Source: Octopus vulgaris
Lineage: Eukaryota
Direction: 5' to 3'
DNA length: 64,000 bases
Assembly (NCBI GenBank): GCA_951406725.2
Contig: OX597818.1
Coordinates: forward strand, 130,820,001-130,884,000
Part shown: positions 1,789 to 56,012 of the stretch, piece after piece
How positions within the stretch are numbered: position 1 is the first letter of the stretch
Layout: every line of letters begins with the position of its first letter
Translations under genes and position numbers: made by a program
The notes under the pieces: model-generated
What the model saw: only the letters and a program-made list of their open reading frames with translations
The model's database searches: none
Told to the model about the DNA's origin: nothing

Positions 1789-1927
1789 TACACACACATT
1801 TAATTACATAGACTTTCACACACATACATACATACATACAAACATACCTATATGTGTGTGTGAAAGTCTATGTAATTAAATGTGTGTGTATGTGTGTGTA
1901 TATATACATATATATATGTATATATAT

Positions 1928-2196
1928 CTCAACATCCAAACTTCCTCATTCTACATCGAGTGAAAGACGGGATGGACGCTTCGTTTTTGTGTTGGTGCCC
2001 CACTCTGTCGGACGCGACTATGAGGATTTGCATCCCCAACGTAAAACTTATAATGTAATACATGTCCTTGAAGTAGTAATTGTACGCGGCTGAAGAAGGC
2101 CGTAGACACACACATTATGCATTGTTATAAAACCATCTAATAAAGGCCCGAAACATATGTACCGCTGAATCCTTGGCATCATGTTTTTATTTTGAT
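1928..2196 (+). mobile_element. Penelope-like element (PLE) terminal-repeat remnant between (TA)n tracts
   Basis: Non-repetitive island flanked by (TA)n on both sides and containing a complete type I hammerhead, a known PLE hallmark. Confidence 0.6.
2086..2165 (+). ncRNA. Type I hammerhead ribozyme with long stem II loop
   Basis: GCGG-CTGAAGA-AGGCC...(~43 nt)...GGCCC-GAAAC-ATAT-GTA-CCGC. Stem I is GCGG/CCGC, cores are CUGANGA and GAAA, stem III is the palindrome ACATATGT, and the cleavage triplet is GUA. Confidence 0.8.
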
Positions 2197-32522: not shown

Positions 32523-32594
32523 TCCTATGTAGTTTAGTGGTTAGGATTCTTAGCTTTCACCCAGGTGACCCAGGTTTGAATCCCAGCATAGGAA
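32523..32594 (+). tRNA. tRNA-Glu(TTC) pseudogene
   Basis: 72 nt TCCTATGTAGTTTAGTGGTTAGGATTCTTAGCTTTCACCCAGGTGACCCAGGTTTGAATCCCAGCATAGGAA. Acceptor stem TCCTATG/CATAGGA is perfect, but the anticodon and T stems are mismatched and the T loop reads TTTGAAT. Confidence 0.8.
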
Positions 32595-53807: not shown

Positions 53808-54963
53808 CAGGGTGCATAAGGTATTTGGGAACATAACTTTTTGGGGTCACTGCTGCATTTTTTGCTAACTCTGTATAATCTTTGTTTCAGAAAAATAATA
53901 ATGGCAGATCCTCAGCTTACTCAAGAAATGAAGAGGAATGCTGTTATTGTGGTTATAAAGGCTGAGCATAGCGATTTAGAAATATCTCGGGTTTTAGGAG
54001 TTGCCAGATCTTTCAACTGCAAAGTTTGTAAGGAGCTAGAGACTGAAGATGGAAATGTATCACCAATAGCAAAGCATAAAAAGCATTCTAAATGCTCTGA
54101 AATCATCAGAACACCTGAATCTATCCAGCAAGTTAGATCATTGATTACAATCCTAGAAAATTGATGAGGTTAATTGCAAAAGATCTCCATGTCAGAAGGA
54201 ACAAACAAAAGAAAATCACTACATCAGATTTAAAAGGCTCCTAAACAAACTGAAAAATCTAGCAGATTTGATTTGCTTTTTCTCAGATGAGTTAATAGAA
54301 GAAATGACAGATGGTTATGTGCAGACCCCTCTGAAGTTCCAAGTGTTGTGCATACAAAATTTCCTGTAACTGCCATAGTTTTAGGGGTTGTCAGCAATGG
54401 AGAACATGTGATACCTCCTTACTTCTTTCCACAAGGCTTTAGAGTTAACTCTGCTGCCTACACTGAGGTTCTGGAAATAATTGTTAAGCCCTGGATAGAC
54501 AGTTTATATACAATGGAAAGTTATATGTGTTTCAGTAAGACTTTGCATTATCACACATGGCTCTAGTAATATAGGAATGGATGGCTGAAAAAAATGTTCA
54601 TGCTCACATATCTCCTAACATTTGACCTCTTAATTCCCCAGACCTCAATCCATTGGATTATTCACGTGGAGCATGGTTGAGATAGAGGTCAATGAACTCA
54701 CCCATAACACCAAAGATTTTTTGAAAGCTGCCATAGTCAGAGTAATGTCCAAAATGAACCAAGACCACTTGATTCGAGCATGTAGGTGACTTAGATCTCA
54801 TATAGAAGCAGATGTTGAAGCTGAAAGTGGCTTTATTTAATAACATTATAGAAAAGAAGGTTTATTTTTATCCTCATAGCATTTTTTGATAAATAAAGTC
54901 ATTATCTGTTATTATATAGCTGTTCTATTATAATCATATATGTCCTCAAATATCATACGCACC

Positions 54964-54966: not shown

Positions 54967-55040
<74 letters not shown>

Positions 55041-55233
55041 CAAAAACAAATAAGATCCAAGTGAATTCCAATGAATTCAAATGAATATGGTACTTAACTT
55101 AGATGCACCAGAATTCATTTATGATATTAATTTAAATCTGCTTGTAATTTGACTTTAAATTTCATAGAACTCACTCCTAATACTTCATGAGGATAATCAA
55201 ACTCTCTAGGATGTCGGGAAAACATATATGTGA

Positions 55234-55322
55234 TTTAGCTGATGAATACTGAACATTTGTATTTGCTGCAATATTTGCAGCTTCAAATAAAATTGTTCTC
55301 AGTATGAAACAATTGTACTAAA
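55234..55322 (+). ncRNA. Type I hammerhead ribozyme with extended stem II, within a PLE-like remnant (55037-55356)
   Basis: TTTAG-CTGATGA-ATACTGA...TCAGTAT-GAAAC-AATT-GTA-CTAAA. Stem I is 5 bp, the base of stem II is 7 bp, and stem III is the palindrome ACAATTGT. Confidence 0.85.
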
Positions 55323-56012
55323 CTACTAATCCATTCTTGTTGCTTTTTTCTTGGTTATATATATATATATATTTATATATATTTATATATATATAAGGTC
55401 TCTCACATTGCTTATTCTTTCGCTGAATGCTTCTCTGAAATTTCTTTAGTTCCTAAATATCACCTGGTTTGGGAGTATGAGCAGTAGGTAGCTGTTCTTA
55501 AGGCAAAACATTTTTCGAGTGTCAACATCAATGTCAGATGTCTCAGAAAATATTTGCAGAAACCTGGCCATTGATCTCTGTACAGATTGTTGAGATCTCT
55601 CCTATTCATTGTGCCATGCCACTTTTATGATGAGGGATGGAAGTGGGCCTATTTTATATATATTCCCCTTGTCAAACCAACTTTATCTTTTAATTACCAT
55701 GATGCCTACCACAAGGAATTACATTGGATCTGTTTTTACTATACTGCCAGTCATCACTCCCTCTTCGTCAGGACATCTGTTATTCACCACTCTGTCTTAC
55801 CATAGTCCACTTCTATTATCGTAATTAACTGATCCCCCTGTATTTTCTCTTACCCAAAGCCAGGAACTTTTTAGCAACCCCTCGTATAAAACTCAGAGTT
55901 TTATCATAGCTACTGAATAATTGTCACATATTACATTACATTTACAGATAAATTCCTCTATTTACATAATATCGAGGTCTCTTTCTTTCTTATGTTGTCT
56001 TACCGTTTTTAT

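What the first reader, a model, noticed from the sequence alone, without database searches (positions are those of the whole stretch)
55234..55322. Apparently intact hammerhead whose stem II extends into a long interrupted hairpin
Seen: canonical CUGAUGA, GAAAC and GUA; stem I UUUAG/CUAAA; stem II AUACUGA/UCAGUAU continuing through GAACA/UGUUC, UAUUUG/CAAAUA and GCUGCAA/UUGCAGC to a 3-nt loop; palindromic stem III ACAAUUGU. With 2086-2165, this makes two dissimilar elements sharing a long-stem-II design. Inference: a hammerhead architecture in cephalopod PLE-like elements that may be under-described. This is the best candidate for a functional RNA in the window.
Basis: partly seen in the sequence, partly recalled or inferred. 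Interest (0 to 1): 0.75.

Follow-up and report, generated by a model that had tools for sequence, protein, structure and literature searches.

The report
Long-armed hammerhead in Hydra-clade retrotransposons
This is the broken-off end of a known kind of animal jumping gene carrying a predicted self-cutting RNA (hammerhead) with an unusually long hairpin arm; about 22,000 such long-armed core motifs sit in this genome where standard searches miss them, but cutting and a job for the arm are untested.

Summary
55234-55322 is an intact type I hammerhead (cut predicted after 55317) with a palindromic 8-nt stem III and a 60-nt stem II. It is the 3' end of a 5'-truncated Hydra-clade Penelope-like element inserted in (TA)n, with an inverted 'tail'. 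Core bases are invariant across 12 subfamilies; the arm keeps its length (56-63 nt in 176 of 177) and its apical hairpin shows compensatory changes, but its middle shifts register and its pair conservation is not significantly above neutral (p=0.15). Core motifs spaced 40-69 nt occur 21,779 times genome-wide (control 138) against 6,425 short ones. Published descriptors and Rfam miss them, and every listed Hydra-clade hammerhead has a short stem II. 5,265 copies run through the cut site, 2 end at it, so the copied RNA was uncut or re-ligated. Most likely a dimer- or protein-assisted ribozyme, as shown for other Penelope-like elements; this lone copy is probably inert. The scan noted a long-stem-II Hydra hammerhead before in another genome (e1-9560118). 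New variant of a known kind.

The parts
55234..55322 (+). Type I hammerhead ribozyme motif; cut predicted after A55317
   Evidence: core invariant across 12 subfamily clusters
55234..55238 (+). Stem I 5' strand (pairs with 55318-55322)
   Evidence: compensatory changes at 2 of 5 pairs and 3 of 5 in the wider set
55246..55305 (+). 60-nt stem II: basal helix 55246-55252/55299-55305, interrupted middle helices, apical hairpin
   Evidence: fold z -3.8; length 56-63 nt in 176 of 177 intact copies
55265..55281 (+). Apical 7-bp hairpin with 3-nt loop, the best-conserved part of the extension
   Evidence: 95% of cells paired, two pairs with three pair types; pair probability 0.55-1.0
55309..55316 (+). 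Palindromic stem III, predicted dimer interface
   Evidence: palindromic in 17 of 20 representatives; double-hammerhead energies
55129..55359 (+). 5'-truncated 3' end of a Hydra-clade Penelope-like element (end of 3' UTR, hammerhead, about 40 nt to the first preferred end point)
   Evidence: 96.5% identical to copy L007; longer copies lead into RT and GIY-YIG-like frames
55038..55130 (-). Inverted 'tail' (about +65 to +160 after the cut in other copies; the start of the 5' UTR in full-length sister elements), with a conserved hairpin at 55088-55110
54967..55037 (.). (TA)n target microsatellite, left flank
55356..55396 (.). (TA)n target microsatellite, right flank
1899..2193 (+). 3' end of a second Hydra-clade family; hammerhead 2086-2165 with 53-nt stem II region (51 nt in typical copies), cut predicted after 2161
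   Evidence: full-length member L281 has DKT, GLYRDD, CxCx5C and 52% identity to the L086 protein over the RT part

Best explanation
This is the 3' end of a truncated Hydra-clade Penelope-like retrotransposon whose type I hammerhead likely cuts only as a dimer or with help from the element's protein, while the 60-nt stem II is a conserved hairpin arm that probably serves as a folding scaffold rather than as part of the catalytic core. Shown: clade, copy structure, invariant core, conserved arm length, and that integrated copies span the cut site and end at two preferred points about 37 and about 155 nt past it. Inferred: full-length elements carry one hammerhead about 200 nt before the start codon and one after the 3' UTR; the two would pair through the palindromic stem III and trim transcripts, while the protein would prime reverse transcription internally at the two downstream points on RNA that is still uncut, on both strands of a nicked (TA)n target. 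That would give this copy: one cDNA from the +37 point (231 nt, with the hammerhead) and one inverted cDNA from the +155 point (93 nt). This lone copy would cut only if transcribed and paired in trans.
For: Clade: the 957-aa ORF of a full-length sister element has RWK, DKT, GLYRDD, CxCx5C, CxxC and CxH, matching the Hydra definition and Hydra-1_Obim motifs; the window's own subfamily encodes a 71% identical RT-thumb. Selection on the ribozyme: 0 alternative subfamily states at 11 core positions against 1.0 private change per column; core-stem changes keep pairing in 13 of 18 subfamily-level against 16 of 39 private cases, p=0.03. Dimer: the double hammerhead is 5 kcal/mol below two monomer minima for this copy and equals the cofold minimum in 6 of 11 representatives. 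Template: 5,265 copies pass through the cut, 2 end at it; end points cluster at +34 to +39 (48 of 110) and +151 to +166 (29 of 110); the tail is the 5' UTR start. Precedent: anole Poseidon starts reverse transcription internally at two sites that bound the tail, its hammerhead cuts only with protein, and cutting is not needed for insertion in vitro (PMC11167929). Arm: identity 0.76 across 11 representatives against 0.31-0.62 upstream.
Against: No cleavage or transcript end was observed. For this copy the cofold minimum (-47.2) lies 1.8 kcal/mol below the double hammerhead. The first stem II pair is A-U here, not the usual G-C. Fixed-register pairs of the extension are not kept significantly better than neutral (8 of 21 against 7 of 33, p=0.15); RNAalifold finds only the apical hairpin and mispairs the core stems; extension-only shuffles give z -1.3 to -3.6 in this lineage and none of 9 subfamilies beats a neutral-drift control clearly (best 14 of 300). 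The 35 nt after the hammerhead are as conserved as the arm (0.74), so part of the arm's identity may reflect 3'-end homogeneity. Tight length conservation is more than a plain scaffold would need. Exact tandem arrays in other families fit a circular template as well.
Confidence: 0.55

Rival explanations
1. Both hammerheads cut the transcript to unit length, the ends are ligated to a circle, and the protein copies the circle from the two internal start points across the re-formed hammerhead, giving tails, pseudo-LTRs and tandem units.
For: Copies span the cut and the tail is the element's own 5' UTR, as a circle predicts. A non-coding family forms 3.5 identical 534-nt units, each with a 50-nt-arm hammerhead, between (TA)n runs. 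The model was proposed for Penelope-like elements (PMC4209133) and shown for retrozymes (PMC7229834).
Against: An uncut transcript from a copy that already has a 3' tail, or from a tandem, gives the same products. In anole Poseidon uncut RNA is the dominant substrate and no reads end at the cut. No circle was seen here.
Confidence: 0.25
2. The long arm is a functional module: a docking site for the element's own RT-endonuclease, or a partner for a tertiary contact with stem I, that switches cleavage on or holds it off until the ribonucleoprotein has formed.
For: Length fixed at 56-63 nt in 176 of 177 copies while the upstream UTR is full of indels; apical hairpin with three pair types at two positions; arms of 44-65 nt in several unrelated-looking families, one with its own compensatory changes (3 of 11 pairs); a Penelope-like hammerhead is protein-assisted.
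Against: No shared sequence or loop among the families' arms; weak and register-shifting middle helices; 6,425 short-spaced cores exist in the same genome and all listed Hydra hammerheads have a short stem II, so the clade does not need the arm.
Confidence: 0.2
3. The motif no longer cuts; it is kept only as a structural or protein-binding signal at the element's end.
For: Monomer predicted to misfold; very low in vitro activity of minimal Penelope-like hammerheads; cleavage dispensable for insertion in vitro in Poseidon.
Against: The invariant positions are exactly the catalytic ones while N7 varies, and the stem III palindrome is kept through a compensatory change.
Confidence: 0.07
4. Chance match or assembly artefact in AT-rich repeat DNA.
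For: AT-rich context; no Rfam hammerhead hit.
Against: 21,779 motif matches against 138 for the reversed control; fixed position in the element; same motif in contigs of runs with four further organism labels.
Confidence: 0.01

Closest known systems
Hydra clade of C-terminal EN+ Penelope-like elements, e.g. Hydra-1_Obim (Craig et al. 2021, PMC8557442)
   Same: RWK, DKT, CxCx5C linker, C-terminal GIY-YIG-like domain without CCHH, (TA)n targeting, inverted 5' copies, tail, type I hammerhead near the 3' end with short self-complementary stem III.
   Different: Listed Hydra hammerheads have stem II plus loop of about 12-25 nt (22 nt in Hydra-1_oBim) against 57-60 nt here; elements here are about 4.6 kb per unit with a 957-aa ORF, Asn-rich linker and 1.1-1.5 kb 3' UTR, against <3 kb; the tail is about 120 nt against 30-40 nt.
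Minimal type I hammerheads of metazoan Penelope-like elements (Cervera and de la Pena 2014, PMC4209133)
   Same: Type I topology, 4-5 bp stem I without an evident loop 1 contact, palindromic stem III, predicted dimer activity, position in the flanking repeats.
   Different: Helix II there is at most 7-8 bp with a loop of <=10 nt (descriptor); here an interrupted hairpin of about 25 bp; stem III palindrome of 8 nt rather than 4; A10.1-U11.1 in this subfamily.
Poseidon_Ac (PAc) of Anolis (Frangieh et al. 2024, PMC11167929)
   Same: Two internal end points downstream of the hammerhead bounding a tail; copies include the uncut hammerhead; both target strands used.
   Different: Other clade; hammerhead overlaps the start codon and the start sites lie in the ORF; no homology between RNA and target, whereas both end points here sit at TA-like microhomology.
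PLE-X1_sMoe hammerhead (Craig et al. 2021, File S2)
   Same: A Penelope-like hammerhead with a 52-nt stem II region: precedent for a long arm.
   Different: Spike moss, endonuclease-less Chlamys-related element, single family, marked as deviating; arm not analysed.
Metazoan non-LTR retrozymes (Cervera and de la Pena 2020, PMC7229834)
   Same: Type I hammerhead in repeats; tandem non-coding units occur in another long-arm family of this genome (L256).
   Different: This family is tied to an RT-endonuclease ORF, copies are 5'-truncated, not 200-400-nt tandems, and the loop 1-loop 2 contact is not evident.

Membership tests
Type I hammerhead ribozyme | Core CUGANGA / GAAA / NUH in type I order around three helices | tested here: met
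   invariance
Type I hammerhead ribozyme | Stems I, II (base) and III supported by compensatory change | tested here: met
   (p=0.03)
Type I hammerhead ribozyme | Site-specific self-cleavage | not testable with these tools
   only assembled contigs of guessed-RNA runs were available
Type I hammerhead ribozyme | Score against Rfam hammerhead models | tested here: not met
   no hit at E<=10; none at gathering score in 8 loci of other long-arm families; likely due to the insert
Minimal PLE hammerhead (Cervera 2014) | Short palindromic stem III suited to dimers | tested here: met
   (prediction only)
Minimal PLE hammerhead (Cervera 2014) | Stem II 3-7 bp with loop 3-10 nt | tested here: not met
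   60-nt insert against the descriptor
Hydra-clade PLE | Single ORF, RT followed by C-terminal GIY-YIG-like endonuclease | tested here: met
   by motif comparison; Pfam gave no significant family
Hydra-clade PLE | RWK, DKT, CxCx5C linker, CxxC and CxH, no CCHH | tested here: met
   read in sister subfamily L086, 71% identical to the window subfamily's RT-thumb, whose own endonuclease part shows CxCx5C, CxxC, CxH
Hydra-clade PLE | (TA)n insertion, pseudo-LTR and inverted structures, tail | tested here: met
Hydra-clade PLE | Placement in an RT phylogeny with reference clades | not tested
   reference proteins were only seen in a supplement, not held as sequences
Hydra-clade PLE | Short elements (<3 kb, typical not defining) | tested here: not met
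   about 4.6 kb between the two hammerheads of L085 and L086
Non-LTR retrozyme | Short non-coding head-to-tail repeats | tested here: not met
   this family carries an ORF and single or inverted ends; met for the L256 family
Non-LTR retrozyme | Abundant circular RNA | not testable with these tools
   no raw RNA reads

The most novel reading that the evidence does not exclude
Long-armed hammerheads are the dominant ribozyme form of Hydra-clade retrotransposons in this lineage (over 21,000 cores, unseen by current descriptors), and the 45-65-nt stem II arm is a docking module through which the element's own protein switches cleavage and circularisation on, with non-coding tandem derivatives propagating as circular-RNA retrozymes on that machinery.
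Probability: 0.2. Interest if true: 0.75.

Novelty: new variant of a known kind. Interest (0 to 1): 0.45.

Why it matters
Hammerheads in Penelope-like elements are known, but their role is open. Here the commonest spacing in a 2.8-Gb animal genome is one that published descriptors and Rfam cannot see, so ribozyme censuses and 'no hammerhead' calls for such elements may be too low. A dozen subfamilies with natural compensatory variants, young full-length members with intact ORFs and a non-coding tandem family give ready substrates to test whether these ribozymes need a dimer, the element's protein or the arm, and whether the copied RNA is uncut or circular.

Tried and rejected
Rfam: whole window, swamped by microsatellite hits; focused, no hammerhead. 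Pfam: nothing significant on the endonuclease part or the full ORF. Neptune clade: first guess, dropped once the Hydra motifs were read. Repeat finders gave mostly microsatellites. Expression: no RNA holder listed; four guessed-RNA contig sets hold pieces of the family but cannot show ends, strand or cleavage. RNAalifold alone did not recover the hammerhead. A tree-based count of independent compensatory events was not obtained; extant subfamily states were counted against private changes instead, so the number of independent events stays open. Retrozyme reading for this family rejected (ORF-linked, no short tandem). Lunse et al. 2017 on dimer-cleaving Penelope-like hammerheads is not held and may list long-stem variants; one supplement file of PMC4209133 could not be searched.

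Full report
1. Observation. The sequence at 55234-55322 reads as described: stem I 55234-55238/55318-55322, CUGAUGA, a 60-nt insert (55246-55305), GAAAC, palindrome ACAAUUGU and GUA, cut predicted after A55317. A strict type I descriptor finds only this site on either strand of the window. The insert folds at -17.6 kcal/mol (z -3.8; 2 of 300 shuffles). Rfam gives no hammerhead hit at E<=10.

2. What it belongs to. A 311-nt query found 69 matches among 40 scored of 2,148 candidates in the 2.8-Gb genome; a 33-nt subfamily marker has 91 matches at <=1 mismatch, control 0. Copies share the 3' end and are 5'-truncated at varied points. Longer ones lead, 1.1 kb upstream, into RT-thumb and GIY-YIG-like frames. 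A full-length sister element (L086) has a 957-aa ORF, 71% identical over 341 aa to the window subfamily, with RWK, DKT, GLYRDD, CxCx5C, CxxC and CxH. These are the Hydra-clade marks of Craig et al. 2021 (section read; alignment passages). The window copy is (TA)n, an inverted 93-nt tail, a 231-nt 3' end, (TA)n. The 2086-2165 motif belongs to a second family (1,727 candidates) whose full-length member L281 has the same clade motifs and 52% identity in the RT part. The organism was not determined here.

3. How common the long arm is. Core motifs with an 8-nt stem III pattern and 40-69 nt between the core halves occur 21,779 times (reversed control 138); with 8-29 nt, 6,425 times (control 97). 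Spacings of 30-39 nt and other stem III lengths were not counted. Of 61 distinct long-spaced sites I inspected (15 loci as the tool listed them, 40 regions hand-picked from the first 100 rows), 57 have a stem I of at least 3 bp. A link to a Hydra-type ORF was shown only for this lineage, the 2086 family and the L034 family. The descriptor of Cervera and de la Pena allows loop 2 up to 10 nt and stem II up to 7 bp (supplement passage). The Hydra rows of Craig's File S2 all have short stem II regions (22 nt in Hydra-1_oBim); one spike-moss element has 52 nt. 'Long helix II' in PMC13725137 means 6-8 bp (passages). Searches showed no paper on long-armed hammerheads in these elements; Lunse et al. 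2017 was not held and is known to me only through a review passage.

4. Is the arm conserved? For: 176 of 177 copies with an intact core (of 194 profile hits) have 56-63 nt. Across 11 representatives identity is 0.76 in the arm, 0.31-0.62 upstream and 0.74 in the 35 nt downstream. On 27 chosen rows 93.8% of cells pair, with both-side changes in stem I (2 pairs), basal stem II (3), middle (2), apical hairpin (2) and stem III (1), and slid controls at 39-48%. With more distant families (21 rows) the apical hairpin stays 95% paired, one pair taking C-G, U-A and A-U, another C-G, U.G and U-A. A separate lineage (13 rows) gives an 11-bp stem II by RNAalifold, 3 pairs compensated. Against: these structures were named by me from these sequences, and rows are related. 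Among 12 clusters covering 154 of 194 copies, subfamily-level changes keep pairing in the core stems better than private ones (13 of 18 against 16 of 39, p=0.03) but not significantly in the extension (8 of 21 against 7 of 33, p=0.15). A C-A mismatch is fixed in the apical hairpin of two young subfamilies. Shuffling only the extension gives z -1.3 to -3.6 in this lineage and -0.7 to -4.8 in typical copies of other families; a neutral-drift control is undercut on average by 8 of 9 subfamilies, none clearly. RNAalifold alone finds only the apical hairpin. So the arm is a length-conserved, loosely paired hairpin, firm at its base and tip.

5. How it likely works. The 11 catalytic positions show no alternative state among the 12 clusters, against 1.0 private change per column: selection acts on the ribozyme during copying. 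The monomer is predicted to misfold (stem III probability 0.03-0.07), whereas a double hammerhead lies 5 kcal/mol below two monomer minima here and equals the cofold minimum in 6 of 11 representatives, though not in this copy. Full-length elements have one hammerhead about 200 nt before the ATG and one at the 3' end, so a partner exists in cis. The cut does not define the copied end: 5,265 sites run through it and 2 end at it in (TA)n. This matches anole Poseidon, where reverse transcription starts internally at two sites bounding the tail, both target strands are extended, the hammerhead cuts only with protein, and uncut RNA is the main substrate (PMC11167929, parts 1-2 of 4 read). The window copy's two segments (+65 to +160 inverted; -189 to +42 forward) do not overlap, as two primings on one template would give (inference). 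A re-ligated circle explains the same data; a non-coding family with 3.5 identical 534-nt units favours circles for that family at least.

6. RNA data. No run on record as RNA was listed; guessed-RNA contigs hold pieces of the family and say nothing on ends. Contigs of runs under four other organism labels hold the motif with the long arm, so it is not confined to one assembly.

7. Papers seen. PMC4209133: parts 1-2 of 4 and supplement passages. PMC8557442: passages, outline, section 11, supplement part 2 of 59 and search hits. PMC11167929: parts 1-2 of 4. PMC6765202, PMC13725137, PMC6962438, PMC7229834: passages. Hammerhead numbering and the NUH rule are recalled.

8. Verdict. Real, a member of the Hydra-clade Penelope-like elements, carrying a type I hammerhead of known design except for a long stem II that I found described only as a single plant exception. 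New variant of a known kind; interest 0.45. The family-level signal and the genome-wide count are the result; this copy is probably inert.

Noticed in passing
L256:1015-2894 (G000:C1:5011014-5012893, - strand): 3.5 identical 534-nt non-coding units between (TA)n runs, each with a 50-nt-arm hammerhead: a retrozyme-like array and the best target for a circular-RNA test.
   Followed up: partly
G000:C1:25050050-25052891: Six hammerhead cores with a 25-nt stem II region at 559-560-nt spacing, another tandem family; similar 545-nt spacings at C1:14.26 Mb and 30.58 Mb.
   Followed up: no
window 55088-55110 (-) and L007:1690-1852: Two conserved hairpins in the tail between the two preferred end points; 12 predicted pairs, mostly invariant, one with both-side change. 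Candidate protein-binding or start signal.
   Followed up: partly
L086:1877-4750: The ORF has a long Asn-rich linker between thumb and endonuclease; intact 949-957-aa frames in 7 of 11 loci fetched for long open frames point to a young subfamily.
   Followed up: no
L057:563-647 (-): Single copy lacking 12 nt of the apical hairpin (48-nt insert), a natural deletion variant.
   Followed up: no
L040:1077-1150, L077:2754-2825: Families with 33-nt stem II regions and 10-12-nt palindromic stem III, the latter long enough for monomer folding.
   Followed up: partly
window 53820-54860 (+): Broken frames that look like a Tc1/mariner-type transposase remnant (label recalled, not tested).
   Followed up: no
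window 32523-32594 (+): Rfam tRNA match, 41.7 bits, above the gathering score; tRNA or tRNA-derived SINE head.
   Followed up: no
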